DNA of 53,315 nt, taken from a virus. Lineage: Duplodnaviria; Caudoviricetes. Below the pieces are notes generated by a model. The model was not told the origin of the DNA and made no database searches. It saw only the letters and a list, made by a program, of their open reading frames with translations. Shown here piece by piece: positions 3,287 to 53,315 of the stretch (positions are counted from its first letter, which is position 1; each line of letters starts with the position of its first letter). Location of the stretch: positions 1-53,315 of IMG/VR virus record IMGVR_UViG_3300023278_000762. One strand, given 5' to 3'. The position numbers and the translations under genes were made by a program.

Positions 3287-3297
3287 ACAATTAAACA

Positions 3298-3654: not shown

Positions 3655-3677
3655 GTAATTAATTAAATATTTTGTGC

Positions 3678-3686
3678 GTAATTATA
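3678..3686 (+). promoter_or_regulatory. Putative late promoter core GTAAT(T/A)ATA
   Basis: Same 9-mer in intergenic gaps before groEL (3678), scaffold (13144), ejection genes (24908) and on - before ERF (46717-46725); AT-rich and also found inside CDS. Confidence 0.4.
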
Positions 3687-3724
3687 TATCTATACAAATT
3701 AAATAAAATTAAATTATTAGCAAA

Positions 3725-5293
3725 ATGGAATTTAACTTACCAAGTCAAATAGTAAAAAATCTAGACTTCGGAGACGAAGCTAGAAACAAGATATTGTCAG
3801 GTGTCTATAAATTATCCGACGCAGTGAAGTCCACATTAGGAGCTTCTGGAAAATGCGTTATATATGAAGACGCAATGGGCAGACCGGTGATAACAAAAGA
3901 CGGAGTAACCGTTGCAGAAAGCGTAGTCTTAATAGACCCGGTTGAGAATATAGGTGCTACTTTAATAAAAGAATCAGCTAATAACACAGTGCGTGAAGCA
4001 GGAGACGGTACTACTACAGCTACCGTCCTTGCCACCGCTATACTTTCTGGTTTAAGTAATCATAAAGGCAAAGAAAAAATTAGAGATGTTAAAGAAGGTG
4101 TTAACAACGCAGCCAAAGAAGTTGCTGAATACTTAGAGAAATCAAGTACACCTGTAGAAGGAGAAATGTTAAAGCAAGTTGCATACATTAGTTGCAACAA
4201 CGATTCGATTCTTGGAGACAAAATTGGTGAAGCTTTTCAAAAAGTTGGTAAAAACGGAGTGGTCTTAATGGAGGATTCCGAAACAAGTGAAACTTATGTA
4301 GACTTTGTTGAGGGAACGCAATTTCCATCAGGTATAAAATCACAGCATTTACTAACAGACAAAGACAAAGGCACAGCGGTTTTAGATAACCCATACGTTT
4401 TAATTGTTGGATCCTCAATACCTAACATCAGAAGAATACAAAGTATATTGGAGCATGTAGTAAAGACGAAAAGATCATTACTAATCATTGCAGACATGGA
4501 CCAACAGCCGTACGCTACATTATTAGCTAATAAGGTTAAAGGTAACATTAAAGTAAATATTGTTGATTTACCCGGGTTTGGACCAACAAAGAGCGATACA
4601 ATAGAAGACTTAGCTATATTAACTGGCGCTACGGTCATTAACGAGGAGTTAGGGGACGATTTAGATCTAATAGACCCTAATGTACTAGGGGCAGTTATAA
4701 AGTCCGTTACAGACAGTAAAAACACAACCTTGCAAATTGGAGAAGTTAATAAAGATTTAACTAAAAGAATTGCTGAAGTAGAAAAAAAGATTGACAAAGA
4801 ATCAAACGCTTACATAAAGAAAAGAATCGAGCAAAGATTATCAATGCTAACTGGTAAAGTTGGTGTTGTTTATGTAGGAGCTAATTCAGCTGTCGAATTA
4901 AAAGAAAAAAAAGATAGAGTAGAAGACGCTATCCACGCTACAAAAGCAGCTTTGCAAGAAGGTATTGTAGCAGGAGGTGGTATTGCTTTGTTAAATGCTT
5001 CTCAAAGCATTAAAGCTAAGAATGAAGGTTATAACATTTTACTAGAGGCTATTAAAGCACCTTATAAAACTATCTTAGAAAACGCGGGTTATTCGAATAA
5101 ACAAGAACCTCAAGGTGGAATCGGATTCGGGTACGATGTTACCTGTGGATGCGAAAGACAAATGGTTAGCAGCGGTATTATAGATCCAGTACTAGTAACA
5201 AAGTCAGCGCTTAAAAACGCGGTGAGTGTTGCTACTACTATAATTTCAGCTGATTGTATAATTTCAAATGTAAGATCTCTTGAGGGCAATTAA
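3725..5293 (+). CDS. groEL: Phage chaperonin GroEL (Cpn60)
   Basis: ITKDGVTVA, AGDGTTTATVLA, ELKEKKDRVEDA, GIVAGGG and IIDPVLV motifs; no GGM tail. Confidence 0.97.
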   Translation: MEFNLPSQIVKNLDFGDEARNKILSGVYKLSDAVKSTLGASGKCVIYEDAMGRPVITKDGVTVAESVVLIDPVENIGATLIKESANNTVREAGDGTTTATVLATAILSGLSNHKGKEKIRDVKEGVNNAAKEVAEYLEKSSTPVEGEMLKQVAYISCNNDSILGDKIGEAFQKVGKNGVVLMEDSETSETYVDFVEGTQFPSGIKSQHLLTDKDKGTAVLDNPYVLIVGSSIPNIRRIQSILEHVVKTKRSLLIIADMDQQPYATLLANKVKGNIKVNIVDLPGFGPTKSDTIEDLAILTGATVINEELGDDLDLIDPNVLGAVIKSVTDSKNTTLQIGEVNKDLTKRIAEVEKKIDKESNAYIKKRIEQRLSMLTGKVGVVYVGANSAVELKEKKDRVEDAIHATKAALQEGIVAGGGIALLNASQSIKAKNEGYNILLEAIKAPYKTILENAGYSNKQEPQGGIGFGYDVTCGCERQMVSSGIIDPVLVTKSALKNAVSVATTIISADCIISNVRSLEGN

Positions 5294-26803: not shown

Positions 26804-29800
26804 ATGGCAAATATAGATCCAATATACAAGTTAAACGGAAAAGAGTTTACTAAAGAGCAACTGGAAGCTTCGGCTAGTTACCATTCTTTAAGCTTCGATG
26901 ACTATGTGTCTTCAAGAAACTTTGAAATAATACAACCCGAGGATTTTCAAAACGGAGCTGCGGAAAACAATGCACCTGTGGTTCCAAAAAACAATCAAGC
27001 ATTAAACAATGGGGGTTCAGTTTCGGAAAATGGTTCTTCGGACTTACCAGGTAACCTAGAATTTGGAGAAGCTGTAGACTTTGACTTCAACAACCCATAT
27101 TCAGAACCGAAAAAAGAAAGAAGATACATTCAGTTTAAAAGCGGTAGAGTATATGAAGACACTTATTTAAGTGAACTTGAAGAAAACCCTACAGATGAAT
27201 ACAATAGAGAAAAACCAAAAACATTTGAAGAGTATGCAGAGCAAATGGGTGGAAGCTCTTCTAGTATACGAATATATAAGCCAGATACTTTTGTAAAAGA
27301 ACAAAAGTCTGTAGATGCTAGAGTTATTGAGGCTATAAACTCAAAGTTTGAACAAACTGAAGAGCAAAAGCTAGAGAAGAGAGCCAAAGCTGAGGAGATG
27401 TTTGTGCCTCAAGCAGATAGACCTACTCATATGGTATTTACAGGTGATTATAGCCCGCCTGAGTCAATTGTAACTAAGAACGAGGATTACGACAAGTATG
27501 TTGGAATAGCTAAAAATAAATTAGGTAACAACGCTTCGGAAGATGAAATATTATCTGTTGCTAAAAACTTATATGTAGACGCAAGTGTAAAACCTCAAAT
27601 AGCAAAAAACATCGAGCAAAGTTTAAAAGACGGAGCTTATGACCAAGGTAGTAAAGATTTTTTAAACGAAGCAGACAGTGATTTTATTAAAAAGGCTGCA
27701 GCAAGAGAATATAAAACTAAAAACAAAGCGCAACAAGCAAATGTAGCCAAGCTCGAAAGCATGGGTGTTTTAATGAAAGCAACCATAGCTGAAATGGAAG
27801 CTTTGCAAAAACAATCATATAGCCTAGATACATTTGATGCGGAGGCAGCGAGAGAAAGATACAAATATCTTCGATCAACGCTAGAAGTTGCATCAGAAAA
27901 CTACAATGAGTTTTACAACAACTCTTATCTTGTGGTAAATGAAGAGCTGGAAGGTTTGGCTGACATCGTTGATGTTACTAAAAGAGCATATGGTATTGGA
28001 AATGTTCTAGCTGCAAATGTAGTAGCTACAACAAGTGAGCTAATCGGAGGTGCTTTAAAAGCTCCAGAATGGCTAGGTACGATTATAGAATCTGCTATTA
28101 CAGGAGAAGAGTACAACAATACCTGGATGGCGCAAAACACCGGTATGTTATCTGAAGCTTTGTTGGATACAGAAATGATACGTGGAGCTGTTGCAAAACC
28201 GGTTGATGTTGCTGACATTGGATCTGACGGTACAAACCTTGGGTATTGGATGACTGACCTTATAGGTAATCAAATCCCAACAGCAGCAACAATGATAGCT
28301 TTTCCTGCATCATCACTGTATGTTATGGGAGCGAGTGCGGCTGGGCAAAAAGCTAACGATATGGCTGGATTAATGGAAAGTAGCGAAGCTGATTATAACA
28401 ATTGGCAAATGCTTTTAGCTCCAGCTATAGTAGGTACGCTTGAAACTGTTACTGAAAAAATAAGTCTTGGGCAATTAAAGCATGTTGGCAAAGTATTCCA
28501 AGGAAAGAATAGCGTATTAAAAGAAGCAACTGACTATATACAAAACAGAGTGCTTAACAAAAATTATTTTGTTGACGTTTTAGGAGAAGGTGCATCAGAG
28601 GGGCTTAATCAATTAGGTGGAAACATCACGGACAAGTACTTGCTTAAAGACAAAAACGTTCACATATGGGACGGTGTTGGTAATGCTGTTGCTTCTGGAG
28701 GTTTTATGAGTGGTGTTGTATACAAAGCACCATCTATAGGGGTAAAAATGCTAAATCCATTTGCATCTTCCGATTTAAAGCCAAATATCTATGCTAACAT
28801 TGTAATGCAAAATAAGTTAGCTAAAGAAATGCTTAATAAAGACATTTCCCCTAACATAAAAAGTAGTTTAAAACAAGCGTACGATAAACTTAATGAGGCT
28901 AATAACAAACTATTAAATGATCAGTTTAAGACAATTGATGCTTTAAATGACGACCAAAAAACAGAACTTATTGAAATTGACAAAGCCAAAGCTAAAGCTC
29001 TCCTCGAGCTTCAAGATATAAATGGGTTTGACAACATGAGCGACAGTGTTAAGCAAAACTTAATAGAAGGAAAAGAATCCGAAATAAATAGTCTCGCAGC
29101 AAACAAAGAAAAAATATTATCAACTGTAGGAGCTGATGCTGACGTAGCGTTAACAAAATCGTTGATTGAAGGAGCTAAAGATGGTAGTTCTGTTATGGTT
29201 TTTGAAGACGACACTAAAACAAAAGTTACAGCCGCTCAAAAACAATACGATTTCTTGATAAGTGTTGGGTTATCGGAAGCTCAAGCAGAAGCTAAAAAAA
29301 ATGACTACGGTTTGTTCGTACAAGACAAGGATGGTAATGATATATTAGTTATAAATAAAGCGTCCGCTTTAGAAGACAAAGTTGTTACTACAGGAAAACA
29401 CGAGTTTTTACACAAAGTGCTTAAGAGAGCTATTGCCAAAGACCCATCGTTAGCAGAAAATATGGGTAATATGCTTTTAACTGAAATCGCAAATAATCCT
29501 TCTATAATTACAGAAAGAGGTAAGCAAGCTATTAAACAATACAAAGAAAGAGCTGACGACGTTAATGATTCTACAACACAATCTGATTATTTTGAAGAAA
29601 TTATAACTGTTTTTGCAGAGTCAATGAATCCAGAAGCTGCTTCTCAAGCTGACACTTTTACATCTAAAATAGCAGATATAGTTAGAAGAGCTATGAACAG
29701 TTTAGGTATTAGAAATGTTAAGTTTAAAACAAGTAAAGACGTTGTTAATTTTATAAAGGATTATAATAGAGACTTCGCTTCAGGTAAATTATCAAGAACA

Positions 29801-32800
29801 CTACAAAAATTTGAAGCTGGAGAAGGGGAGGTTGTTTCAGCCGAAACAAAGTCTAGCGCTAAACAAAAACCAACAGTATTACAAACAATAAACCAATTAA
29901 TACCGGAAGGTGTTAAAACCAAAGCAGAATTACAAAAGCCTAGAGTGTTTAATCGTATATACGAAGCTACACTTGAAAACGGAGCTATAAGTAATTATGT
30001 AAAATCTCGAAGCGAGAATAAAGCTGTTTACGAAAAGGCAATAGAAAGCATTCAAGAAAGATTGATTAATTATGATCCAGCAGCTGTTCGAAAGAAAGCT
30101 AATGGACAACCAATTACTTTCGGTGAATTTATATTTGCTAACACTAACTTTGGTAAATTAGACGCTAAAAAGAAATTAGCAATTGAATCTAAAGAAGCAA
30201 AAGAAAAAACCAGTGTAGATAGTAAAGAAGCTAAACAAGTAGCGGACGTGTCAGAGGCTCCTGTTCGTGTTGCAGAAAAACCTAAGTATAAGAACTTAGT
30301 TCAAAGTAAAGTGGTCAGCACAGATGCCTTAAAAAGCATTTCAGGTAAGGTTGGGAAGATAGTTAGAACGCTTAAATCAAGAATGGATGCTAAAACATCT
30401 ATTAATAAAACTATTTCTCCGTTAATCGCTGAGATTAAGAAGGAAATGGGTAAGCAAGCTGATATCGATTTAAAGAAAGAGATTGGTGGTAAAAAAGACG
30501 ACCAGATAAAAAAGTATTTGTTAGCAAACAAGAAAGCAATTCTTGAGAACATGACAACTACATGGCTAATGCAAGCGATGCCTGGCGCAATCCAAAAGCA
30601 AGTTGATGGTAAGTTCACTTCAGATTGGAAAGGAAAGAAAATAGATAGAGAAAAAGTTAGCACAAATGCTGCTGGTAAAACATCTGGAGCAGAAATAGTT
30701 AGAAGATTACCAAATCCAAGTGTAAGTTTAGACGATGCTACCTATTTAGGGTATATTATAGACGACAAAGGCGCGCCAATTAGAGGACGTAAAGAATCTT
30801 TAGCTAAAGCAATGGCTGAAGAGATTTCTTTTGACATATTTTCTCAGCAAATAAAAGATCCCGAAAGCGATATAAGCAAAGCTTTTGAGACTAATCAAGA
30901 AAGGCTAGGTGTTGTAATAGCTGAAAACATTGTAGAGGATCTTACAAGACAAATAGATAGAGGTACAGTTAAGTTCTCTGCTAAAATAATTAATCACAAT
31001 AAAGAAAATCCAAATTTTATACCAGATTTTCTTGAAGATATGCGATCAGCTACGTTTCAGCAAATATTTAGTGAAAACTACAGGAATGGAGTTAATAGAC
31101 CTTGGTTTGATTCAGCGATAAAATACTTTGAACAAAAGTACCCTAAAGGATCAGAAGAGCGTAGCTTAACTATTAATGCTGTAAAAGATATAGCTAATGA
31201 TTTCGCAATGAAAAACAGTAATAAAAAACCTGTTGAAGTTGCTGTATTGAGAGCTGCGCAAGATCCAGAGCAATGGCAAGAGGCTTTAGATGCTGTTAAT
31301 GAAAAGGTTGAAGACGCTTTAACGCTTGGAACGGCTTACGATACTGTTGGAATGATTTACACCGGTAGAACTAATCAATTTGACGACGCTAGTCTTGATG
31401 GAATAAATGAAGCAAGATACGCTTTAAAAGCATTGATAGACTCCCTAGCCGAAAAAGGAATGACTAGGAACGAAATAAGAGCCGCTTTAAAAGATGCTTA
31501 CGTAGGTCCCGGAGGTATCGGTAAGTTTACAGTAGGCAGCAAAGACGCATTGCTAACCCTTACAGATGAAAACCTAGGAGAATTTAAAGGTGGCTCCAGA
31601 GGGGCTATTGTTTTGAATGCTACTGATTTTGACAATAACTTCCTGAAAGACGTGAAGAATGAAGGGCCTAAAGTGGTTAATGATTCTAATATTTTTAAGA
31701 AAGATTACTGGACAAAACCGACTAGTAAGTTCAATAAAATGGACTCTAAAGGACAGTGGGGTTTTCTTAATAACTTATTCAATCAAGGTATTAAAAATCA
31801 AGTAAAGCTAGAAAACACAATAGAGTCTATAAAAGATTTAGATGTTTCAGCTGCTAATAAAAGATGGTTAATAAGAGGTTTGTTCGCTGCAATGCCTGCA
31901 TTAGGTAAAGCAACATCAACAACTAGATACGTTCTTGTAAATAATGATGGTAGTTTAGTTTCTTTTGAAGAATTGAAAAGAAAAGGCTTAGCTGCTAAAG
32001 ACGATAAAGGTGTATTTGAACACACAAAACCTGCTAATAGAGTGTCAGTAGCTGCTTATGCTTATGCTATTGCACCTAGTAAGGCAACCAAAACCGCACT
32101 TGATAACGAGTTAAAGGATTTTGATTCAGCTTTGATATCTGAAAAGATGGATAAAGTTTTAGTAGGTCTAAAATTACAATCTAAAATGGGGCTTGGTTAT
32201 AAGGTAGGTACTGGGCCAATGCTTAGTAGATACAGGGAGCTTATTGCTGAACTGGATTCTAAAGGTGTTTATTTCTATGATATAAAGACAAACAAAAAGA
32301 TATTACCCGCCACAAAGTTTAATGATGCTTTTTTAGCTACAGCCAAAGCGGGATTAAAATCTTCTGCAAAAATTTCTGGCGTAACAGAAGGTGGGGCTTC
32401 TACTTTTGTACCAAACGTTAAAGGAGGGTTCAGTAAAAGTTCTACTGGACTGAAAGCTATATTTATGGTTGGTGGTCCTGGAGCTGGTAAAACTAATGTC
32501 GGTAAAGGATTACAGTTAGGTAGACGTGGTTATAAAGTAGTTAATCAAGATATTGCTTTAGAGGCTATGAAAACAGAAGTTGGATTACCAGCTAAAGAAT
32601 CTGACTATGATGCAGAGCAAAGATCTACAAGATCTAAAATTGGAGCTGCTGCTAGAAAAGCTGCTGTAGCAAAGTTTGACAAGTACGCCGACAATGGTAA
32701 CGGAATGGTTATCGACGGTACTGGAGCATCATACAATGCTACTACAAAAAAAATTAAAGCATTACAAGCTAAAGGTTTTGAGGTACATATGGTTGTAGCT

Positions 32801-35329
32801 AATACTCCTTTGTCAACAGCTATAGAAAGAAATAGAGCTAGAACAGAGAGATCATTACCAGACTTTGTAGTACAAAAAACGTACGATCAAGTTCAAGAAA
32901 GTTTAATGAAGTATAGAGAAGATTTTGGAGATCGCTTATACGAGATTAATACGGAGTCAATTAAATTCGGGGAAGCACTTCCTAGCGAATTCTTAAAGCA
33001 AGTTCACAATGGTATAAACAAAAACATTGTAACACTTAATTCGTCGGTTAAATCTAGCGTTAAGTTAAGCAAAGAGTTTAACAACATGATCGAGCGGGGT
33101 ACTGGTACTCTATCGGATGCTAAGTTTTCTAGTGTAGTAGCTAAAAGAAGAGGCGCAAGAAAAGGTAGATTTAAAGTATGGATGCCTACATCACTAGATG
33201 ACTTTAAAGGGCTAACGTCGTATGTTTTCGCAGGTAAAGGTAGACAAGGAGACGCTGATCAAAAGTGGTTTCAAGACAACTTAATAGACCCTTATTTTAA
33301 AGGTATTGCAGCTATTGAAGTTGCTAGACAGACAATGACAGATGATTTTAAAGCATTAAACAAAATGTTTAAACCTGTTGTAAAGTCTCTAGGCAAATTG
33401 ACGAAAGACGGTGATTATACTAATGATCAAGCAATAAGAATATATTTATGGGATAAAGCTGGGTACGAAATACCTGGTCTAAGTAAAAGGGATTTATCTA
33501 AGATGCTTAAGCATATAGAAAATAATCCAGATCTTAAAGCCTATGCAGATGCAGCACTAGTAATCTCAAAACAAGATAAATGGGTAAAACCAGGCTCTTT
33601 CTGGGATGCTCAAACTATATTATCTGATCTTGGTAACATGACTGAGAAGACCGGTAGAAAAGAATATATTGCTGAGTTTATTGAAAATTCAAAAGAGATA
33701 TTTAGTGTAGATAACTTGAACAAGATTGAAGCCGTATATGGCACAAGACAAGCGGATGCTTTAAAAGATATACTTTATAGAATGGAGAACGGTACAAACC
33801 GTCCTTCAGGAATGAATAAGAATGCAAATAGATTTAATAACTGGGTAAACAACTCGATTGGGTCTATCATGTTCTTCAACAGAAGATCTGCATTACTACA
33901 AACATTGTCTACTGTTAACTTTATTAATTGGTCTGATAATAATCCAGCTAAGGCTGCTTTAGCATTTGCTAATCAACCACAATTCTGGAAAGATTTTTCA
34001 ACGCTGTTTAACTCCCCTAAATTAAAGCAACGTAGATCAGGTTTAAAATCAGATATTAACGAAGCAGAGATTGCTAGTGCTGTTAAAGGCTCTAAAAATA
34101 AAGCTGTTGCTGCTTTAAGTTGGTTATTAAAGAAAGGATTTACACCAACACAAATGGCGGATAGTTTTGCTATTGCTTCAGGTGGAGCTACATTCTATAG
34201 AAATAGAGTAAATTCTTATTTAAAAGAGCAGGCACCAGACAAAGAGTTGACTAAGCAGAACAGAAAAATGACGTATGGCCCTAAGTATACTAGGGAACAA
34301 GCTGAACAAAAAGCGTTTGAGGACTTTAGTAAAATATCAGAAGAAACACAGCAATCAGGTGATCCAGCTTTAATATCATCGGATCAAGCAAGTACTGTAG
34401 GTAGAATGTTGTTGGCGTTTCAGAATACGCCAATACAGCTAAATAGATCTATAAAGAAATCTGCGCAAAACATATATAACAGACGTAGAGTTCCTGGATT
34501 AAACCAGTTTCAAAGCGATGTTACTCATTTGAGTCAGATCATTTATTACGGAGCTATTCAGAACATTATATTTTCAACGTTGCAAAACGCATTGTTTGCG
34601 CTGTTGCCAGGTTTTGATGATGAAGAGCCAACAGACGAAGAACTTGCTGCTAAGCTAGGTGAAAAATCTAATAGAATTTTAAACGGTATTATAAGTACTA
34701 CTTTAAAAGGAGGGTTTGGTATACCAGGAGCTGTTGTAGATACTATCAAAAACGTTATTCAAGAGTACAATAAGCAGGATGAAAAAGGGTTTACGGGAGA
34801 TCATACCTACACAATACTGCAAGCAGCTAACTTAGCCCCACCAATTGGTTCTAAGCTTAGTAAAATATATAAAGGAATTCAAGCTAAAAGATTCAATAAA
34901 GACGTGATTGAAAATAGAGGGTACGATGTGGTTTATGACGGTAGATTCAATATTTCACCAGCGTACTCTGTATTAGGTAACGTAGTAGAAGGTACTACTA
35001 ACTTTCCAATGGCTAGAGCTGTTGATGAATTAAACTCTATAACAGAAGCTTTTGACACAAGAAACACCGTGATGCAACGTATAGCATTAGGTTTAGGCTG
35101 GAAAGCTTGGAATGTAGGCGCAACAAACGAAGAGCATATACTTATTAAGACCAACGCTAAGTTAGATAAAAAGGAAAAGAAGAAGGAAGAAAGAGCTAAG
35201 GGAAAAAAGAAAAAAGCTAAGAAAGCAAAAGACTATAGCGATGTTCCTTTCCATAAATTACCGCCAAAAGAAAAAGCAAAGAGATTAGCTCGCAAGCGTG
35301 CAGAAATTGCTAAATCAAAAAACAAATAA
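26804..35329 (+). CDS. Giant internal virion/polyvalent protein with zincin (HExxH) and P-loop kinase (zeta-toxin/AAA_33-like) domains
   Basis: 2841 aa; HEFLH at 29399-29413 with downstream EE; GGPGAGKT at 32471-32494, VIDGT and AIERNRAR lid motif. Confidence 0.8.
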   Translation: MANIDPIYKLNGKEFTKEQLEASASYHSLSFDDYVSSRNFEIIQPEDFQNGAAENNAPVVPKNNQALNNGGSVSENGSSDLPGNLEFGEAVDFDFNNPYSEPKKERRYIQFKSGRVYEDTYLSELEENPTDEYNREKPKTFEEYAEQMGGSSSSIRIYKPDTFVKEQKSVDARVIEAINSKFEQTEEQKLEKRAKAEEMFVPQADRPTHMVFTGDYSPPESIVTKNEDYDKYVGIAKNKLGNNASEDEILSVAKNLYVDASVKPQIAKNIEQSLKDGAYDQGSKDFLNEADSDFIKKAAAREYKTKNKAQQANVAKLESMGVLMKATIAEMEALQKQSYSLDTFDAEAARERYKYLRSTLEVASENYNEFYNNSYLVVNEELEGLADIVDVTKRAYGIGNVLAANVVATTSELIGGALKAPEWLGTIIESAITGEEYNNTWMAQNTGMLSEALLDTEMIRGAVAKPVDVADIGSDGTNLGYWMTDLIGNQIPTAATMIAFPASSLYVMGASAAGQKANDMAGLMESSEADYNNWQMLLAPAIVGTLETVTEKISLGQLKHVGKVFQGKNSVLKEATDYIQNRVLNKNYFVDVLGEGASEGLNQLGGNITDKYLLKDKNVHIWDGVGNAVASGGFMSGVVYKAPSIGVKMLNPFASSDLKPNIYANIVMQNKLAKEMLNKDISPNIKSSLKQAYDKLNEANNKLLNDQFKTIDALNDDQKTELIEIDKAKAKALLELQDINGFDNMSDSVKQNLIEGKESEINSLAANKEKILSTVGADADVALTKSLIEGAKDGSSVMVFEDDTKTKVTAAQKQYDFLISVGLSEAQAEAKKNDYGLFVQDKDGNDILVINKASALEDKVVTTGKHEFLHKVLKRAIAKDPSLAENMGNMLLTEIANNPSIITERGKQAIKQYKERADDVNDSTTQSDYFEEIITVFAESMNPEAASQADTFTSKIADIVRRAMNSLGIRNVKFKTSKDVVNFIKDYNRDFASGKLSRTLQKFEAGEGEVVSAETKSSAKQKPTVLQTINQLIPEGVKTKAELQKPRVFNRIYEATLENGAISNYVKSRSENKAVYEKAIESIQERLINYDPAAVRKKANGQPITFGEFIFANTNFGKLDAKKKLAIESKEAKEKTSVDSKEAKQVADVSEAPVRVAEKPKYKNLVQSKVVSTDALKSISGKVGKIVRTLKSRMDAKTSINKTISPLIAEIKKEMGKQADIDLKKEIGGKKDDQIKKYLLANKKAILENMTTTWLMQAMPGAIQKQVDGKFTSDWKGKKIDREKVSTNAAGKTSGAEIVRRLPNPSVSLDDATYLGYIIDDKGAPIRGRKESLAKAMAEEISFDIFSQQIKDPESDISKAFETNQERLGVVIAENIVEDLTRQIDRGTVKFSAKIINHNKENPNFIPDFLEDMRSATFQQIFSENYRNGVNRPWFDSAIKYFEQKYPKGSEERSLTINAVKDIANDFAMKNSNKKPVEVAVLRAAQDPEQWQEALDAVNEKVEDALTLGTAYDTVGMIYTGRTNQFDDASLDGINEARYALKALIDSLAEKGMTRNEIRAALKDAYVGPGGIGKFTVGSKDALLTLTDENLGEFKGGSRGAIVLNATDFDNNFLKDVKNEGPKVVNDSNIFKKDYWTKPTSKFNKMDSKGQWGFLNNLFNQGIKNQVKLENTIESIKDLDVSAANKRWLIRGLFAAMPALGKATSTTRYVLVNNDGSLVSFEELKRKGLAAKDDKGVFEHTKPANRVSVAAYAYAIAPSKATKTALDNELKDFDSALISEKMDKVLVGLKLQSKMGLGYKVGTGPMLSRYRELIAELDSKGVYFYDIKTNKKILPATKFNDAFLATAKAGLKSSAKISGVTEGGASTFVPNVKGGFSKSSTGLKAIFMVGGPGAGKTNVGKGLQLGRRGYKVVNQDIALEAMKTEVGLPAKESDYDAEQRSTRSKIGAAARKAAVAKFDKYADNGNGMVIDGTGASYNATTKKIKALQAKGFEVHMVVANTPLSTAIERNRARTERSLPDFVVQKTYDQVQESLMKYREDFGDRLYEINTESIKFGEALPSEFLKQVHNGINKNIVTLNSSVKSSVKLSKEFNNMIERGTGTLSDAKFSSVVAKRRGARKGRFKVWMPTSLDDFKGLTSYVFAGKGRQGDADQKWFQDNLIDPYFKGIAAIEVARQTMTDDFKALNKMFKPVVKSLGKLTKDGDYTNDQAIRIYLWDKAGYEIPGLSKRDLSKMLKHIENNPDLKAYADAALVISKQDKWVKPGSFWDAQTILSDLGNMTEKTGRKEYIAEFIENSKEIFSVDNLNKIEAVYGTRQADALKDILYRMENGTNRPSGMNKNANRFNNWVNNSIGSIMFFNRRSALLQTLSTVNFINWSDNNPAKAALAFANQPQFWKDFSTLFNSPKLKQRRSGLKSDINEAEIASAVKGSKNKAVAALSWLLKKGFTPTQMADSFAIASGGATFYRNRVNSYLKEQAPDKELTKQNRKMTYGPKYTREQAEQKAFEDFSKISEETQQSGDPALISSDQASTVGRMLLAFQNTPIQLNRSIKKSAQNIYNRRRVPGLNQFQSDVTHLSQIIYYGAIQNIIFSTLQNALFALLPGFDDEEPTDEELAAKLGEKSNRILNGIISTTLKGGFGIPGAVVDTIKNVIQEYNKQDEKGFTGDHTYTILQAANLAPPIGSKLSKIYKGIQAKRFNKDVIENRGYDVVYDGRFNISPAYSVLGNVVEGTTNFPMARAVDELNSITEAFDTRNTVMQRIALGLGWKAWNVGATNEEHILIKTNAKLDKKEKKKEERAKGKKKKAKKAKDYSDVPFHKLPPKEKAKRLARKRAEIAKSKNK

Positions 35330-46741: not shown

Positions 46742-47494
46742 TTAAAGATAATCAATCACTTGATCTTCACTTACGTTAGCGATAAGATGATCTATAGCTT
46801 CTTTTTTAATCTGAGAAACTATTACAGTTGCAGTAGGAACGTTAATATTCACGTACTCCGCAATTTGTTTAGCTGATTGTTTTTCACAATCTAAACCGTA
46901 AAATAATCTTACAACATCATATTGCTTTTTAGTTAAATACTCCCGCATGATACCTAACAAATAGCTGTTCAATAGATCTATATTATATTCTTTAGAATTG
47001 TCAGGCAACTGGTATGCAAAGTTATCTTCATTCAACGGATTAATGTCGTAACTAGAAAACATACTGTTGAAAAACATTGCTACCATTTTACTATTCTCAG
47101 GATTTTTTCTGATAGTAGTTAGTACATGCTCAGGTATTTTAATGTCTCCGCGGTTAATGTCAATGGCTCTACGTATAGCACCTTTAATTCGCTTACTGAA
47201 GAACGACTTTAAGGTTTTTTCTATATCGTCAGAAGCGTCGAGCTGGTCCCAGTCTAATCTATCTACAGCTTTAACTAAGCCTGAACTACCTTCTTGAATT
47301 AAATCATTAATACTCAACACTCCAGATGCTTGCTGTGAGGTTGAAAACTTTCTAGCTAGACTTTCTACTAATGGTAAAAATTTAACTATAAGTTCGTTTC
47401 TTGAGTAATCTTTGTATTCGCTTTTCATAGGAGGCATAGATTCTTTTAAGTCTTCTTTATATCTTACATAGTTCTGTATGTTATATTTTTTCAT
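46742..47494 (-). CDS. Phage sigma70-family RNA polymerase sigma factor
   Basis: LPLVESLARK, DLIQEGSSGLVKAVDR, RIKGAIRRAI (region 2); LTKKQYDVVRLFYGL plus HTH (region 4). Confidence 0.9.
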   Translation of the reverse strand: MKKYNIQNYVRYKEDLKESMPPMKSEYKDYSRNELIVKFLPLVESLARKFSTSQQASGVLSINDLIQEGSSGLVKAVDRLDWDQLDASDDIEKTLKSFFSKRIKGAIRRAIDINRGDIKIPEHVLTTIRKNPENSKMVAMFFNSMFSSYDINPLNEDNFAYQLPDNSKEYNIDLLNSYLLGIMREYLTKKQYDVVRLFYGLDCEKQSAKQIAEYVNINVPTATVIVSQIKKEAIDHLIANVSEDQVIDYL

Positions 47495-49996: not shown

Positions 49997-50275
49997 TTAT
50001 AAGTTATATTTTTTTTCAAGATCATTAATTTCGTCAGAAATTCTTTTTGCTTTCAAGAAATCTTGGTCATCAATGGATTTTGCTAACAAAGTTTTAAGTT
50101 CGCTAATTTTATTTTGTATAGCGTTTTTGCTATTGCTTAACTCAACTTTAATTTCTGTGCCTTCTTTTACAAGAACTTTTACGTCCTCGAGAAATTGTTT
50201 GTCATATTCTTCTTGCTTCGCCATCATCTTCAAGACAATGGCGTTAGCTAGCTTATCTATTTGATCGTCAGTCAT
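49997..50275 (-). CDS. UVR (UvrB/UvrC motif) domain protein
   Basis: ISELKTLLAKSIDDQDFLKAKRISDEINDL matches the UVR helical-hairpin pattern. Confidence 0.65.
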   Translation of the reverse strand: MTDDQIDKLANAIVLKMMAKQEEYDKQFLEDVKVLVKEGTEIKVELSNSKNAIQNKISELKTLLAKSIDDQDFLKAKRISDEINDLEKKYNL

Positions 50276-50278
50276 ATA

Positions 50279-50509
50279 TTATACTCTTGAATAAGAGTAA
50301 GATCTAAGAATGTAACGGTTAATAAATTTACCTTTAGAAGGTGATGATCTTAAGCCTTCAAATACGTGATTTGGTACGCTTTTGTACTCGTATCTGTCGC
50401 CGTTTACGAATTCTAATTCTAAGCTGTAGTTGTCATAAGCGTAATTAGCTGTTGAAATTGCTGTTGAATTTACTTCAACTGTTTGCATTGGTAAAATTTG
50501 TTTGTTCAT
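50279..50509 (-). CDS. KTSC domain protein
   Basis: STAISTANY...LELEFVNGDRYEYKSVP...SPSKGKFIN..I. Confidence 0.88.
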   Translation of the reverse strand: MNKQILPMQTVEVNSTAISTANYAYDNYSLELEFVNGDRYEYKSVPNHVFEGLRSSPSKGKFINRYILRSYSYSRV

Positions 50510-50534
50510 AATTTAATTGTTTTTAGTTATTATT

Positions 50535-50556
50535 ATTATCGATTTGTATTCGTGTT
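50535..50556 (-). promoter_or_regulatory. Phage promoter-like motif, copy 2
   Basis: AACACGA-atacaaa-TCGATAAT upstream of the KTSC gene. Confidence 0.75.
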
Positions 50557-50821
50557 AATCTAGCAAGGCATAATACGCTGCAGGGTTTTTAGTGCGGAAC
50601 CAAGTTAATCCGCGATGAAAGTCGTCAATCATTTTTTTACTGACAGTTTTAGGCATCATTTCGAACACCATTTGAGTACCCATGATAAAATCGTACATAG
50701 CTAGCTCAACGTTGTTTAATTCATATTCTTCGCCACTAAATTTGTTAGTAACTACATCACCGGTTTCGTAAATTACGCCCTTAAACCATTTTGGCATTGT
50801 TTGTGTTTTAGTTTTTGTCAT
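50555..50821 (-). CDS. Hypothetical protein
   Basis: 88-aa early-region ORF. Confidence 0.7.
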   Translation of the reverse strand: MTKTKTQTMPKWFKGVIYETGDVVTNKFSGEEYELNNVELAMYDFIMGTQMVFEMMPKTVSKKMIDDFHRGLTWFRTKNPAAYYALLD

Positions 50822-51125
50822 TATTATTGTTTATTAAGTTTTTTAAATATTCCCATACTTTTAGATCTTTACGTTCTATATCTGCCATTATTATTAATGT
50901 ATCAATATCGGTAAATGTTGTGTTGTTTTTTTCAATATCTGTTTCAGCAGCGGCAATTCTTATAGCTTGGTTAATTATTTTTGATTCAATTAAGTCAATT
51001 GCACGATCACGTATAGCATCCTCAACCGATACTGTATACTTTGTTTCAATCTTAGAAAGCATATGTTGCATCCAAACATTATCGCTAGTGTCAGCTAAGT
51101 CTTGTAGTAATTTTAATTCTTTCAT
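50808..51125 (-). CDS. Hypothetical protein
   Basis: 105-aa helical ORF. Confidence 0.7.
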   Translation of the reverse strand: MKELKLLQDLADTSDNVWMQHMLSKIETKYTVSVEDAIRDRAIDLIESKIINQAIRIAAAETDIEKNNTTFTDIDTLIIMADIERKDLKVWEYLKNLINNNNDKN

Positions 51126-51135
51126 ATTTTATTTT

Positions 51136-51594
51136 TTAATCTTGTTGCTCATAACCTTCGCCTATCAACTCGTCAATAACTTCTTCTTCGAATCTTTCAG
51201 CCAAATATACGAATAATTGCTCGATAGCGTCGTCAATAAATTGTTGGTAAAGATCGTCTACATATATAATTTCAGGATTATCTTCGTCGCCGTTAGAATA
51301 TTTGATATATTCTGCAAGGGCACCACTTAAATCACTATCATAATAGTATACGTTTTCGTTTACATTAACAGAACTTTGGTCATGCGTAGCTACATACACT
51401 GAATAGCCATCTGCTGTTGATTCTTCGTATACATAAAAATCTGCAGAACTAGAGTAGTCATCTATAAATTCTACGCCAAAGTGTTTTAATACTGCTTTTT
51501 TAGCTAGATCTTCGTCTTCGCTTTGCTTTTCACCAAAGCCTTTAGCTTCTAGTCTTTCGTTAATTAGTTCGTCTGTAATTAGTTTTTTACTCAT
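51136..51594 (-). CDS. Highly acidic hypothetical protein
   Basis: 152 aa rich in D, E and Y. Confidence 0.75.
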   Translation of the reverse strand: MSKKLITDELINERLEAKGFGEKQSEDEDLAKKAVLKHFGVEFIDDYSSSADFYVYEESTADGYSVYVATHDQSSVNVNENVYYYDSDLSGALAEYIKYSNGDEDNPEIIYVDDLYQQFIDDAIEQLFVYLAERFEEEVIDELIGEGYEQQD

Positions 51595-51605
51595 AATATA
51601 TAGTT

Positions 51606-51842
51606 TTAGTTGTTTTTTTCTATTAATTCAATGTTAGGATAAAAAGCGTCTCCAAAGAAGTCTAGATTACATGCTGACATTACGTCGAAAGCAGTACCGT
51701 AGGGAACAGCAGTAAAGAAAACTAGTTCGCTTAGTAATTTAATTAGTACGGCGTGAGAGTGAGGATAGTTACTAAACTTAGCGGCTATTGACTGTTTGTG
51801 TTCTGGTTTAAGTCGCTCCCAAAGTGTTAATCTTATTTTCAT
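51606..51842 (-). CDS. Hypothetical protein
   Basis: 78 aa, downstream of promoter motif copy 3. Confidence 0.7.
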   Translation of the reverse strand: MKIRLTLWERLKPEHKQSIAAKFSNYPHSHAVLIKLLSELVFFTAVPYGTAFDVMSACNLDFFGDAFYPNIELIEKNN

Positions 51843-51869
51843 AGTATTATATTTATTTGTTACATTTAT

Positions 51870-51891
51870 ATTATCGATTCTTGTTCGTATT
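51870..51891 (-). promoter_or_regulatory. Phage promoter-like motif, copy 3
   Basis: AATACGA-acaagaa-TCGATAAT. Confidence 0.75.
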
Positions 51892-52315
51892 AGATTTGTA
51901 AATGATTTAATACCGCTTTCCAGTCAGGAAATTTATCTGTACCAAACTGTATTAACTCACCGTCAAACTCACCTGCTCCGTTAGCCGTTCTATCGTCGAT
52001 CAATATGTCGCCACGTAGTAGGTTTTTATGGTTAGACAATATCAACCGCTTGTGCGCAAGAGGACCTAAGTATTTACTCACCCATTGTCGTTTATGAGTC
52101 CACGAGGCAGGCATATTCCACGGTGCAGTAGATAAGATATAGACGTCAAATTCATCTGTCATACATAATTCTGCAAATGCTTCAACCGCTCCGTCGATTG
52201 GTTTGGGATTCTTGAATATGTTAGGATGCCATTTACCGTTATTTTTATCAATTTCGGATTGGAGATCGACTAATACGCCGTCCATATCTACATATACTGT
52301 TTTATTCTTGTTCAT
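51890..52315 (-). CDS. 5'(3')-deoxyribonucleotidase (HAD, NT5C family)
   Basis: VYVDMDGVL, ILSTAPW, K..W, GDILIDDR. Confidence 0.88.
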   Translation of the reverse strand: MNKNKTVYVDMDGVLVDLQSEIDKNNGKWHPNIFKNPKPIDGAVEAFAELCMTDEFDVYILSTAPWNMPASWTHKRQWVSKYLGPLAHKRLILSNHKNLLRGDILIDDRTANGAGEFDGELIQFGTDKFPDWKAVLNHLQI

Positions 52316-52505
52316 AATATCTTCTTTTTATTGACATATACATTTTTTCAACCGCTAAAAACATTACATCTTCACGTATAGCATTGTACTCATCACCGTC
52401 TTGATTAAAGTCTTCTAATTGCCAATCAACACTATCATACATTAGTTCTTTTGTAACGTCAGCTATGCCTTGAGCGATGTCATTAAGTTCTTCTAATTTA
52501 TTCAT
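52302..52505 (-). CDS. Acidic hypothetical protein
   Basis: 67-aa ORF. Confidence 0.7.
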   Translation of the reverse strand: MNKLEELNDIAQGIADVTKELMYDSVDWQLEDFNQDGDEYNAIREDVMFLAVEKMYMSIKRRYYEQE

Positions 52506-52507
52506 AG

Positions 52508-52687
52508 TTATTTTCTTATATAGGTTAGTCCTTTGTAGTTAAACCATTGACTTATTCCGTCAGTATCGTTTTCTTCATCCCACTTGAAAGCGAATGATGG
52601 AGGTAAGTTACCTACAGTATAAGGCTTGTATAGTACTTTGCCTAGTTTGATATTGTTTGTTGTTCTTTGTACTTTAATTGATTCCAT
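52508..52687 (-). CDS. Hypothetical protein, 59 aa
   Basis: Start reassigned to ATG 52687 (MESIKV) because the longer frame runs through the RNA gene. Confidence 0.7.
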   Translation of the reverse strand: MESIKVQRTTNNIKLGKVLYKPYTVGNLPPSFAFKWDEENDTDGISQWFNYKGLTYIRK

Positions 52688-52707
52688 ATTGTTTATTTTT
52701 AAATTAG

Positions 52708-52785
52708 TGGAGGTGGAGAGAATCGAACTCTCTTCCGCAATAGTTCCATATAGGCTTTCTATCACGTCAAAACCAGGTCACCCCC
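52708..52785 (-). ncRNA. ssrA-like: Mini-tmRNA: tRNA-like domain only, no mRNA-like domain
   Basis: GGGGGUG-ACCUGGUUUUGAC-GUGAUAG-[15 nt]-CUAUUGC-GGAA-GAGAG-UUCGAUU-CUCUC-CACCUCC-A: 7-bp acceptor stem with G3.U70, A discriminator, stemless D-loop, helix 2a, T-arm. Confidence 0.85.
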
Positions 52786-52789
52786 GTGT

Positions 52790-53065
52790 GCTACAAGCTA
52801 GGGTAATAACTATTGAGTGTTTTTAGTGGAGGGCTAAGAACCTCATACACTTGCATTATCACTCGCATTACTACTCGATACTAACTTGTAGCTACTAGCA
52901 ATTCACTTATGTGATTTAGGTACCGCTCCTCGCGGTATCTTTACAGCATTCGCCCACCTAAACCCTAATTAAGCTACTCGTCTAGTTTATTATAGGAAGC
53001 GTGATCGGCGTCTAATACATTTTCGTCGTTAGATATACCGGCCGGTCCGCTAATGTTTGCTTCCT
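52790..53065 (-). ncRNA. Structured non-coding RNA region (three stem-loop domains)
   Basis: Stems 52790-52801/52881-52892, 52913-52921/52956-52964, 52921-52937 and 52994-53000/53059-53065; mismatches read as G.U on the - strand. Confidence 0.6.
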
Positions 53066-53077
53066 TATTACATATAT

Positions 53078-53099
53078 ATTATCGATCGGTGATCGTATT
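53078..53099 (-). promoter_or_regulatory. Phage promoter-like motif, copy 4, upstream of the ncRNA cluster
   Basis: AATACGA-tcaccga-TCGATAAT, 12 nt before the first stem. Confidence 0.75.
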
Positions 53100-53110
53100 A
53101 TGTTTGTGTA

Positions 53111-53218
53111 TTATTTGTACCATCCGTATGTAGGCAATTTCTTGCATCTTTTTCTTTTCACACTTCCACAACTAGCAAGCATGGATCCTAGTATTATTAG
53201 TAATATTATTTTCTTCAT
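53111..53218 (-). CDS. 35-aa lipoprotein
   Basis: MKKIILLIILGSMLASC-GSVKRKRCKKLPTYGWYK; lipobox LASC. Confidence 0.7.
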   Translation of the reverse strand: MKKIILLIILGSMLASCGSVKRKRCKKLPTYGWYK

Positions 53219-53315
53219 AATATTGTTTTTAAATGGTTTTTAATTAGTTGTACATCTTCATCTGGTATGTCGCCATACTCGTCTTCTTCTCTTTGCATAA
53301 TACAATCATAGATCG
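53215..53315 (-). CDS. 3' end of a hypothetical protein (truncated by the window)
   Basis: ...IYDCIMQREEDEYGDIPDEDVQLIKNHLKTIL*; ATGA overlap with the lipoprotein gene. Confidence 0.55.
   Translation of the reverse strand, partial: IYDCIMQREEDEYGDIPDEDVQLIKNHLKTIL

What the first reader, a model, noticed from the sequence alone, without database searches (positions are those of the whole stretch)
52708..52785. Phage mini-tmRNA reduced to the tRNA-like domain: candidate SmpB decoy or tag-less rescue RNA
Seen: the - strand reads GGGGGUGACCUGGUUUUGAC GUGAUAG AAAGCCUAUAUGGAA CUAUUGC GGAA GAGAGUUCGAUUCUCUC CACCUCCA. Both tmRNA-type ends are joined by a 7-bp helix and a 15-nt loop, replacing the pseudoknots and tag ORF. 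CCA is not encoded (ACUA). Known: G3.U70 with A73 is the alanyl-tRNA synthetase identity, and the stemless D-loop ending GAC plus the GGA connector form the SmpB-binding surface. TLD-only tmRNAs are known from jakobid/oomycete mitochondria and, from memory, a mycobacteriophage, so the idea has precedent; I know of none described for Bacteroidota phages. Inference: an early RNA that titrates SmpB (and possibly AlaRS/EF-Tu) to block trans-translation and ssrA-tag proteolysis, or that rescues ribosomes without tagging.
Basis: partly seen in the sequence, partly recalled or inferred. Interest (0 to 1): 0.92.

Follow-up and report, generated by a model that had tools for sequence, protein, structure and literature searches.

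The report
Phage mini-tmRNA without tag template
An 81-base phage gene encodes only the alanine-accepting, tRNA-like end of the bacterial ribosome-rescue RNA (tmRNA) and lacks its tag-coding part; one such phage RNA was already known, and it most likely interferes with, or stands in for, the host's rescue system.

Summary
Window 52705-52785 (-) is matched end to end by Rfam's tmRNA model at 69.4 bits (cut-off 47), with 304 internal model positions deleted. It has a 7-bp acceptor stem with G3.U70 and A73, a stemless D-loop ending GAC, a 7-8-bp helix 2 capped by a small hairpin, and a T arm. It has no tag ORF, no pseudoknots and no encoded CCA.

It is a selected RNA. The same form occurs in 60 other viral contigs (40 distinct sequences with the window). 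In these, 98.6% of pair cells are paired, 11 of 19 pairs show double compensatory changes, and G3.U70 is kept in 40 of 40. Only 4 matches were found in 185,579 prokaryote genomes.

The kind is already known. Mycobacteriophage DS6A carries a 'TLD only' tmRNA, and a similar molecule inhibits tmRNA in E. coli (PMC4131195, PMC11915505). DS6A's RNA has the same architecture. So this is a new member of a known kind, here in a Flavobacteriia-type podophage. Its function, decoy or tag-less rescue, remains inferred.

Seen in passing: the RNA lies in an 'RNA island' of hairpin scaffolds that exchange near-identical cassettes. A sister TLD form (78 stretches) carries those cassettes in a hypervariable arm.

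The parts
52705..52785 (-). TLD-only tmRNA gene (81 nt including the CUA trailer; the mature RNA probably ends at A 52708 plus an added CCA)
   Evidence: RF00023 69.4 bits, model 1-374; own model R1 90.8 bits; family alignment A3
52779..52785 (-). acceptor stem, 5' strand GGGGGUG (G3 at 52783)
   Evidence: pairs with 52709-52715; G3.U70 in 40 of 40, pair 5:68 covaries (GC23 CG9 AU6 UA1 UG1)
52767..52778 (-). stemless D-loop analogue ACCUGGUUUUGA; the C of the GAC motif (52766) opens helix 2
   Evidence: aligned to the tmRNA consensus GAucuGGaUUCGAC; same GGUUUUGAC in the full-length tmRNA of Cellulophaga phage Calle_1
52759..52766 (-). helix 2, 5' strand (CGUGAUAG)
   Evidence: MFE; 6 of 7 consensus pairs have double compensatory changes
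52744..52758 (-). apical element AAAG-CC-UAUAU-GG-AA (mini-hairpin with A-rich bulges) in place of pseudoknots and tag ORF
   Evidence: the analogous GAAAA-CCGC..GCGG-UA is in DS6A
52736..52743 (-). helix 2, 3' strand (CUAUUGCG)
52733..52735 (-). connector GAA (the GGA connector of tmRNA together with G 52736)
   Evidence: aligned to cGGAC of the tmRNA consensus; the A is invariant in A3
52716..52732 (-). T arm GAGAG-UUCGAUU-CUCUC
   Evidence: 4 of 5 pairs with double compensatory changes
52708..52715 (-). acceptor stem 3' strand CACCUCC (U70 at 52711) and discriminator A73 (52708)
52790..52892 (-). upstream structured module 'E': long hairpin closed by GCUACAAG/CUUGUAGC (not part of the TLD; same RNA island)
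   Evidence: fold of 52786-52990: -63.9 kcal/mol, z -3.8, 0 of 200 shuffles; its halves recur at 97-100% identity inside type-2 TLD arms of L236, L157, L172
52894..52986 (-). upstream structured module 'AB': conserved flanks CUAGACGAGUAGCUUAAUUAG / ACAUAAGUGAAUUGCUAG around a variable stem
   Evidence: 21 viral contigs hold the flanks; variable part closes into a stem of mean 5.96 pairs against 2.86 in mismatched controls; its 47-nt cassette is 98-100% identical inside type-2 TLD arms of L183/L191, L194, L188, L180

Best explanation
The gene encodes a tmRNA reduced to its tRNA-like domain (TLD). It belongs to a phage-borne family that includes the published 'TLD only' RNA of mycobacteriophage DS6A.

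Shown here:
- the tmRNA-type acceptor stem with G3.U70 and A73, the stemless D-loop with GG and GAC, helix 2, the GGA-type connector and the T arm;
- strong covariation in all variable helices;
- absence of any resume codon, tag frame or pseudoknot;
- absence of SmpB and of an integrase in the phage;
- near-exclusive occurrence in viral contigs.

Inferred:
- The RNA is transcribed on the - strand ahead of the nucleotide-metabolism and replication genes.
- RNase P cuts its 5' end, the CUA trailer is trimmed, and the host enzyme adds CCA.
- Host AlaRS charges it with alanine, and host SmpB and EF-Tu bind it.
- Because it cannot offer a resume codon, it competes with the host's full tmRNA for SmpB and for stalled ribosomes. 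This lowers ssrA tagging (and the proteolysis and mRNA decay coupled to it) of phage products during infection.
For: Identity: RF00023 69.4 bits against a cut-off of 47, both ends matched, 304 model positions deleted.

Family and structure:
- 60 other viral contigs hold the form, giving 40 distinct sequences with the window.
- 98.6% of 759 pair cells are paired against 71.1% in shuffles (0 of 500 reach it). The covariation score is 0.687 against 0.153 shuffled and 0.08-0.115 slid.
- 11 of 19 pairs have double compensatory changes.

Alanine identity under selection: U70 was a free position in the search pattern, yet it is U in 40 of 40, while the neighbouring pair 5:68 covaries. In the sister 'type 2' form, pairs 4:69 and 5:68 change (GGGAGUG/CACUUCC, GGGCAUG/CAUGUCC) with G3.U70 kept.

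Host-type TLD: the full-length tmRNAs of Cellulophaga phages Calle_1 and phi38:1 share GGUUUUGAC and the non-encoded CCA (...CCUCC-A-CUAA).

Dependence on host SmpB: PF01668 is absent from the window and from 0 of 50 carrier records searched, 8 of them at least 90% complete.

Phage-specific: 4 matches in 185,579 species genomes, all MAG contigs.

tRNA-like handling: in 8 of 60 loci a same-strand tRNA gene lies within 100 nt.

[quoted passage not shown] The same point is in PMC11915505 (passages). DS6A's RNA (28478-28560, 43.2 bits) has the same architecture.

Expression, weak: Logan contigs from two metatranscriptome libraries of two studies lie on 52696-52985 of relatives' versions.
Against: - No function was tested. 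Expression rests on contigs from RNA libraries, which cannot show ends or strand and may contain DNA.
- The cited experiment says inhibition does not need charging. Yet G3.U70 and A73 are strictly kept here, which suggests that aminoacylation matters and that plain SmpB titration is not the whole story.
- The connector is GGAA in the window's clade, against GGAC in the tmRNA consensus.
- The RNA is dispensable for the lineage: neither of the 2 closest GenBank genomes has it (MW202828, and one Elemovirus genome, NC_055852).
- Most type-2 relatives lack the GAC motif thought to contact SmpB.
- One RNA-library contig runs from the TLD on into the next gene, so a discrete small RNA is not shown.
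- Mao et al. 2009 itself could not be read. What it showed is taken from two citing papers.
Confidence: 0.5

Rival explanations
1. Tag-less rescue or alanine tailing. Ala-TLD with host SmpB and EF-Tu enters stalled ribosomes and accepts the nascent chain. The chain is then released without an ssrA tag (by drop-off and peptidyl-tRNA hydrolase, an ArfB-type factor, or repeated rounds that add a few alanines). Phage proteins from broken or non-stop mRNAs would thus escape tagging while the ribosomes are freed.
For: Strict retention of the charging identity (G3.U70 in 40 of 40; A73 was fixed by the search pattern) although neighbouring pairs vary. CDS-less tmRNAs are retained together with SmpB in jakobid and oomycete mitochondria and are thought to help with incomplete mRNAs (PMC11915505, passages). 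In another phage clade the stop codon of the upstream 390-aa ORF overlaps G1 of the TLD by one base (L121: ORF 2762-3934, TLD 2684-2762). Similar junctions are read from sequence in L084, L088, L093, L094, L128 and L129. Excision of the TLD there would leave a non-stop mRNA.
Against: There is no stop codon or release mechanism in the RNA. No ArfB, Pth or RF-like gene lies near it. The only experimental statement available reports inhibition, not rescue. In the window's own clade the TLD does not abut a CDS.
Confidence: 0.2
2. tRNA-like processing and stability scaffold. The TLD serves mainly as an RNase P / RNase Z / CCA-enzyme handle. It punctuates a polycistronic transcript and releases or stabilises the neighbouring structured RNA modules, or, in type 2, the cargo carried in its arm. 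Trans-translation is not the target.
For: The TLD is the constant element next to a variable set of structured modules. Module C ends exactly at the TLD's 5' end in L083, L155 and L157. Type-2 TLDs carry arms of about 20-135 nt made of the same cassettes. It also lies in tRNA arrays and abuts coding genes.
Against: Any tRNA would serve for punctuation. The tmRNA-specific D-loop, the GGA connector and alanine identity are conserved across phages of 27-64% G+C. L131/L134 and most other clades have the TLD with no modules at all.
Confidence: 0.15
3. One half of a split tmRNA: the conserved upstream region supplies the mRNA-like domain with a tag frame. ARAGORN at a relaxed threshold calls a permuted tmRNA with the tag ADHASYNKLDE.
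For: ARAGORN -ps80 call. The invariant block GCUAGACGAGUAGCUUAAUUAG contains short frames that end in stop codons.
Against: The call appears only below ARAGORN's default threshold. The frame is not conserved: L004 has a stop three codons before its end. The block is predicted to be base-paired. Modules are present, absent or reordered among close relatives, and L131/L134 have none. The TLD is closed on itself, so nothing tethers a second piece. Rfam's permuted model scores 14 bits, E 1.5.
Confidence: 0.03
4. An attP remnant or decaying pseudogene: a scrap of host ssrA picked up by imprecise excision.
For: tmRNA genes are common integration sites, and prophages carry ssrA fragments (PMC9004378, passages).
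Against: Both the 5' and 3' halves are present and joined by a helix that covaries. No tyrosine integrase or resolvase is in the window, and no tyrosine integrase in 5 near-complete clade relatives. The form is conserved in 60 contigs of 27-64% G+C.
Confidence: 0.02

Closest known systems
TLD-only tmRNA of Mycobacterium phage DS6A (tmRNA Website 'Standard, no CDS'; Mao et al. 2009 as cited in PMC4131195 and PMC11915505)
   Same: Phage-borne, about 80 nt, standard (unpermuted) order. It has an acceptor stem with G3.U70, a stemless D-loop ending GAC, a 6-7-bp helix 2 capped by a small hairpin with A-rich bulges, a T arm, and A73 followed by CUA rather than CCA.
   Different: No detectable sequence similarity beyond the tmRNA core: blastn of the window RNA against 50,697 GenBank phage records finds nothing. 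DS6A scores below Rfam's cut-off (43.2), whereas the window's RNA scores above it (69.4). The host phylum differs (Actinomycetota against, by inference, Bacteroidota), as does the genomic context (DS6A: between gp33 and a DNA pol III gene).
Full-length tmRNA of flavobacterial phages (Cellulophaga phages Calle_1 and phi38:1, 362 nt)
   Same: Nearly the same TLD halves: GGGGGCGACUGGUUUUGAC ... GGACGAGGGUUCGAUUCCCUCCGCCUCCACUAA, with CCA not encoded.
   Different: They keep about 280 nt of pseudoknots and a tag frame called by ARAGORN. The window RNA has 15 nt there.
CDS-less tmRNAs of jakobid/oomycete mitochondria and of Mallomonadaceae plastids (about 65 bp)
   Same: tmRNA reduced to the tRNA-like domain, without a tag reading frame (PMC11915505, passages).
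   Different: They are organellar and mostly circularly permuted, and they co-occur with a dedicated SmpB of the same cell. Here the gene is unpermuted and phage-borne, and SmpB would have to come from the host.
Permuted two-piece phage tmRNAs (OM43 phage Melnitz, pelagiphages; Maribacter phage Panino seen here)
   Same: Phage-encoded tmRNA genes, often beside tRNA genes (PMC9004378, passages; Panino).
   Different: They retain an mRNA-like piece and are permuted.

Membership tests
tmRNA (Rfam RF00023) | Score at or above the curated gathering threshold, with both ends of the model matched | tested here: met
   69.4 bits against 47, model 1-374
tmRNA (Rfam RF00023) | 7-bp acceptor stem with G3.U70 and discriminator A73 (alanine identity) | tested here: met
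   GGGGGUG/CACCUCC-A; G3.U70 in 40 of 40 family members with position 70 left free in the pattern
tmRNA (Rfam RF00023) | Stemless D-loop analogue (GG ... GAC), GGA-type connector and T arm with a UUCGAUU-type loop | tested here: met
   Alignment to the consensus. The connector is GGAA instead of GGAC; the A is invariant in A3
tmRNA (Rfam RF00023) | mRNA-like domain: resume codon, tag reading frame ending in a stop, pseudoknots | tested here: not met
   304 model positions deleted; 15 nt between the strands of helix 2; ARAGORN default finds no tmRNA. It is therefore not a complete tmRNA but the TLD-only subclass
tmRNA (Rfam RF00023) | SmpB partner encoded in the same genome | tested here: not met
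   PF01668 absent from the window (83% complete) and from 0 of 50 carrier records. It would have to use host SmpB
Phage TLD-only tmRNA (DS6A type; 'Standard, no CDS') | Both TLD halves in standard order, joined by a short closed helix, about 65-85 nt, no CDS | tested here: met
Phage TLD-only tmRNA (DS6A type; 'Standard, no CDS') | Inhibits trans-translation / binds SmpB | not testable with these tools
   Known only from citing papers for a similar molecule in E. coli
Phage TLD-only tmRNA (DS6A type; 'Standard, no CDS') | Common descent with DS6A's RNA rather than independent deletion | tested here: inconclusive
   Shared apical hairpin with A-rich bulges but no blastn similarity. The window's TLD halves resemble flavobacterial-phage tmRNA, which favours independent reduction
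tRNA-Ala | Cloverleaf with D stem and anticodon arm | tested here: not met
   ARAGORN finds 0 tRNAs. In cmscan the best family of the tRNA clan is tmRNA, not tRNA
Permuted (two-piece) tmRNA (RF04321) | 3' TLD half upstream of the 5' half; match to the permuted model | tested here: not met
   Standard order read from the sequence; RF04321 scores 14 bits, E 1.5

The most novel reading that the evidence does not exclude
In this lineage of marine Flavobacteriia-type podophages, the alanine-identity TLD is the constant core of a recombining 'RNA island'. Short structured cassettes move at 97-100% nucleotide identity between free-standing hairpin scaffolds (as upstream of the window's TLD) and the helix-2 arm of a sister TLD form, whose arm ranges from about 20 to 135 nt. 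The TLD would then be a natural tRNA-type scaffold. It would process, stabilise and perhaps deliver (to SmpB, EF-Tu or the ribosome) a fast-changing set of effector RNAs, for instance decoys or aptamers against host factors. Inhibition of trans-translation would be only the ancestral or minimal function.
Probability: 0.25. Interest if true: 0.85.

Novelty: new member of a known kind. Interest (0 to 1): 0.55.

Why it matters
A TLD-only phage tmRNA has so far been a database curiosity. The passages I read name one phage example (DS6A), and the database counts 9 'Standard, no CDS' sequences in all. This window shows that it is a recurrent, selected and almost exclusively viral RNA: 60 further contigs of 27-64% G+C for the canonical form, and 78 stretches for a sister form. 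Alanine identity is strictly kept. That makes phage interference with bacterial ribosome rescue a general hypothesis that can be tested. It also points to an open question: why must a mere SmpB decoy stay chargeable? The adjoining cassette-swapping RNA island, if functional, would be a new kind of phage non-coding RNA system.

Tried and rejected
- my first collection pattern had one N too many in the T-arm spacer and could not match even the window. A viral-contig scan was wasted; the corrected pattern was used.
- blastn of the 81-nt RNA and of 50000-53315 against GenBank phages gave nothing useful.
- ARAGORN at -ps80 called a 'permuted tmRNA' with the tag ADHASYNKLDE, and two intron-containing tRNAs. 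I rejected these: they fall below the default threshold, the frame is not conserved, and the modules are optional.
- ARAGORN's 'tmRNA' in L082 is spurious. Its 5' end lies in a coding gene and its tag comes from a 21-nt tandem repeat. ARAGORN's 'tmRNA*' in Panino overlaps two tRNAs.
- I considered hammerhead, pistol and other ribozymes and a group I intron for the upstream modules. No Rfam family other than tmRNA matches 52600-53315 at E up to 10, apart from the weak permuted-tmRNA hit. None but tRNA and tmRNA matches 20 type-2 loci at E up to 0.1.
- I considered a dispersed MITE. The modules have no second copy in the window.
- I thought of CRISPR-repeat mimicry by the cassettes but did not test it.
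- The sigma-70-type promoter scan is no better than shuffles (5 found against a mean of 4.2). The only terminator-like site is on the + strand.
- The two closest GenBank genomes and five cultured flavobacterial phages have no convincing TLD-only RNA. So I found no cultured carrier.
- RNA runs X19 and X20 show no cover on the flanking coding regions. The runs that I did not lay say nothing.
- A direct comparison with a host (Flavobacteriia) chromosomal tmRNA was not possible. Phage Calle's full-length tmRNA served instead.
- Supplementary tables are closed. Those of PMC11915505, which list the 9 'Standard, no CDS' and 79 phage sequences, may already contain members of this family.
- Literature searches for prior description: ('mini-tmRNA': 0 papers). 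Apart from DS6A, no phage TLD-only RNA turned up in the listings and passages I read.

Full report
WHAT IS THERE. The window is an IMG/VR viral contig of 53,315 bp, linear and about 83% complete. It encodes a tail fibre, a GroEL-like chaperonin, large terminase, portal, ribonucleotide reductase, primase/helicase and ligase. On the - strand it also encodes NT5C, Erf, a PDDEXK protein, a sigma-70-region-2 protein, thymidylate synthase and MazG. Its large terminase (TerL) matches 87 GenBank phage records. All 86 with a named host infect Flavobacteriia: Flavobacterium 68, Cellulophaga 15, Tenacibaculum 2, Maribacter 1. The best match is an uncultured podovirus at 63% identity. So a Bacteroidota host is a fair inference.

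THE OBSERVATION. Rfam's tmRNA model matches 52705-52785(-) from its first to its last position at 69.4 bits (cut-off 47; E 5e-25), with 304 internal positions deleted. The MFE fold is a 7-bp acceptor stem, an unpaired D-loop analogue, an 8-bp helix closed by a small hairpin, and the T arm. ARAGORN at default settings sees neither a tRNA nor a tmRNA. One refinement: the '15-nt loop' contains a conserved CC/GG mini-hairpin flanked by A-rich bulges.

IS IT A SELECTED RNA?
- A pattern that demands only the tmRNA-type ends, with 20-50 free bases between them, finds 60 further viral contigs. With the window they give 40 distinct sequences. The loci range from 27 to 64% G+C.
- On a MAFFT alignment made without reference to structure, RNAalifold predicts 19 pairs, 11 of which have double compensatory changes.
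- 98.6% of pair cells are paired against 71.1% in shuffles (0 of 500). The covariation score is 0.687 against 0.153 shuffled and 0.08-0.115 when the partners are slid.
- The pattern fixed much of the acceptor stem but left position 70 free. It is U in 40 of 40, while pair 5:68 next to it takes five forms.
- The same pattern finds only 4 places in one genome each of 185,579 prokaryote species. All four are MAG contigs, and one is a 1.66-kb contig that carries the window clade's upstream module. The form is therefore essentially viral.
- In 8 of 60 loci a same-strand tRNA gene lies within 100 nt.
- In another clade the stop codon of the upstream ORF overlaps the first G of the RNA (L121).

WHAT IS KNOWN. 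The tmRNA database papers list 'Mycobacterium phage DS6A (TLD only)'. [quoted passage not shown] The latter counts 9 'Standard, no CDS' sequences and 79 phage sequences. The primary paper (Mao et al. 2009) is not held.

I located DS6A's RNA at 28478-28560 of JN698994, in an unannotated gap, where it scores 43.2 bits. Aligned with the window's RNA, it has the same architecture, down to the apical hairpin with A-rich bulges and the A-CUA 3' end. By blastn there is no similarity.

Full-length tmRNAs of Cellulophaga phages Calle_1 and phi38:1 share the window RNA's GGUUUUGAC D-loop and non-encoded CCA. This fits an origin by internal deletion of a Flavobacteriia-type tmRNA. Searches for other descriptions found none.

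HOW IT PROBABLY WORKS.
- The phage encodes no SmpB, and neither do any of the 50 carrier records searched (of the 60 found).
- There is no tyrosine integrase or resolvase in the window, and no tyrosine integrase in 5 near-complete clade relatives.
- The conserved features are those that AlaRS reads in tmRNA (G3.U70, A73), those that SmpB reads (D-loop GAC, GGA connector) and those that EF-Tu reads (acceptor/T minihelix). This assignment rests on established knowledge of tmRNA, not on a test here.
- With no resume codon, the RNA cannot complete trans-translation. The best-supported mechanism is therefore competition with host tmRNA for SmpB and stalled ribosomes, as reported for the similar molecule. 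I give it 0.5.
- The strict retention of alanine identity, which the cited work says is not needed for inhibition, keeps tag-less rescue or alanine tailing alive (0.2).
- A role as a tRNA-like processing or carrier scaffold is suggested by the context (0.15).
- A split tmRNA with an upstream tag frame and an att remnant are disfavoured (see the rival explanations).
- Expression evidence is weak. Contigs from two metatranscriptome libraries of two studies lie on relatives' versions of 52696-52985, and one continues into the next gene.

THE SURROUNDINGS. The 205 nt upstream (52786-52990, - strand) fold into two long hairpins at -63.9 kcal/mol (z -3.8; 0 of 200 shuffles).
- Among clade relatives this region is a mosaic of optional modules between a small zinc-ribbon-like gene and the TLD. 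L131/L134 have none.
- Module AB has invariant flanks around a variable stem. It occurs in 21 contigs. The variable part closes with a mean of 5.96 consecutive pairs, against 2.86 for mismatched partners.
- A covariance model built from the family then found, in 14 of 16 new AB-bearing loci, a TLD-like RNA. In 13 of them it is a second, more divergent form (L166 carries the canonical one): GGGCGUG-AAAUGGUUAG-[arm]-AAC-GCAGG-UUCGAUU-CCUGC-CACGUCC-A-CUAA.
- Its 3' part occurs in 78 stretches of viral contigs. These give 69 distinct RNAs of 69-186 nt, and in 3 loci no 5' end was found.
- Rfam's best family for 18 of 20 such loci is tmRNA, at 31.5-42.6 bits, below the cut-off.
- The arms are built from the same cassettes as the free-standing modules. 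The window's 47-nt AB cassette is 98-100% identical inside the arms of L183/L191, L194, L188 and L180. The halves of its E module lie inside the arms of L236, L157 and L172, and its E tip lies inside the arm of L227.
- The modules have no other copy in the window and match no Rfam family. What they do is unknown.

VERDICT. The finding is real and correctly read as a TLD-only tmRNA. It is a new member of a known, little-studied kind, here in a Flavobacteriia-type podophage and part of a much larger viral family than the literature I could read describes. The decoy function is inferred from precedent. The most unusual thing in the locus is the cassette-exchanging RNA island around it, not the mini-tmRNA itself.

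Noticed in passing
window 52894-52986 (-): Module 'AB': a long irregular hairpin with invariant flanks (CUAGACGAGUAGCUUAAUUAG ... ACAUAAGUGAAUUGCUAG) around a variable stem. It occurs in 21 viral contigs and matches no Rfam family.
   Followed up: partly
window 52790-52892 (-): Module 'E': a long hairpin with conserved internal loops and a variable tip. The same element forms the arm of type-2 TLD RNAs in L157, L172 and L236.
   Followed up: partly
L165:1517-1600, L157:4118-4246, L169 (RNA ends near 4470) and 75 other stretches: 'Type 2' TLD-like RNA: core GGGCGUG...CACGUCC-A with G3.U70 and a hypervariable arm of about 20-135 nt built from nested cassettes. There are 69 distinct RNAs of 69-186 nt. 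tmRNA is the best Rfam family, but below the cut-off.
   Followed up: partly
L004:5290-5390 (and L083, L114, L127 and others): Module 'C': a third tRNA-like scaffold (AACUAGG ... GAGGG-UUCGAUU-CCCUC-GCUAGUU-A-CAAA) without G3.U70 and with a variable middle part. Its 3' end abuts the TLD's 5' end in L083, L155 and L157. It is absent from the window.
   Followed up: partly
L121:2684-3934 (-); also L084, L088, L093, L094, L128, L129 by reading: In another phage clade the stop codon (UAG) of a 390-aa ORF overlaps G1 of the TLD-only RNA by one base. The ORF carries a GHFHHLRV-type motif that looks like a metallophosphatase; I did not scan it. RNase P cleavage there would leave a non-stop mRNA.
   Followed up: partly
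L245:1540-1700 (Maribacter phage Panino, PP540027 about 27,600-27,760): The tmRNA of this cultured phage looks circularly permuted. A T arm plus 3' acceptor strand (ending A-CUAA) is followed about 38 nt later by a GGGGGUGAUUGGAUUUGAC 5' piece, inside a tRNA array. ARAGORN's 'tmRNA*' call there overlaps two tRNAs.
   Followed up: partly
L244:1501-1860 (Cellulophaga phage Calle_1): Full-length phage tmRNA whose ARAGORN-predicted tag (AQIEANMEAVNAILNLEVAVGV) is long and, as far as I recall, unlike usual tags, which end in Ala-Ala.
   Followed up: no
L082:7449-7520 (-): Three tandem copies of a 21-nt unit lie directly upstream of a 75-nt TLD-only RNA. They mislead ARAGORN into calling a 303-nt tmRNA.
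   Followed up: yes
L147-L150: The only 4 TLD-only matches in the prokaryote genome collection are MAG contigs labelled Saccharibacteria, Ilumatobacteraceae, archaeon and Alphaproteobacteria. They are probably mis-binned viral contigs. L150 carries the window clade's upstream module.
   Followed up: partly
window 3725-5293 (+): Phage-encoded GroEL-like chaperonin (PHROG 5725, E 9e-135). The related Elemovirus genome annotates a GroES next to its terminase.
   Followed up: no
window 46742-47494 (-): ORF with a sigma-70 region 2 domain, possibly a phage sigma factor.
   Followed up: no
window 26804-35329 (+): A single ORF of 2841 aa, not examined.
   Followed up: no
window 53111-53218 (-): A 35-aa ORF that looks, by eye, like a lipoprotein signal peptide (MKKIILLIILGSMLASCGS...), upstream of the RNA island. 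No Pfam match.
   Followed up: no
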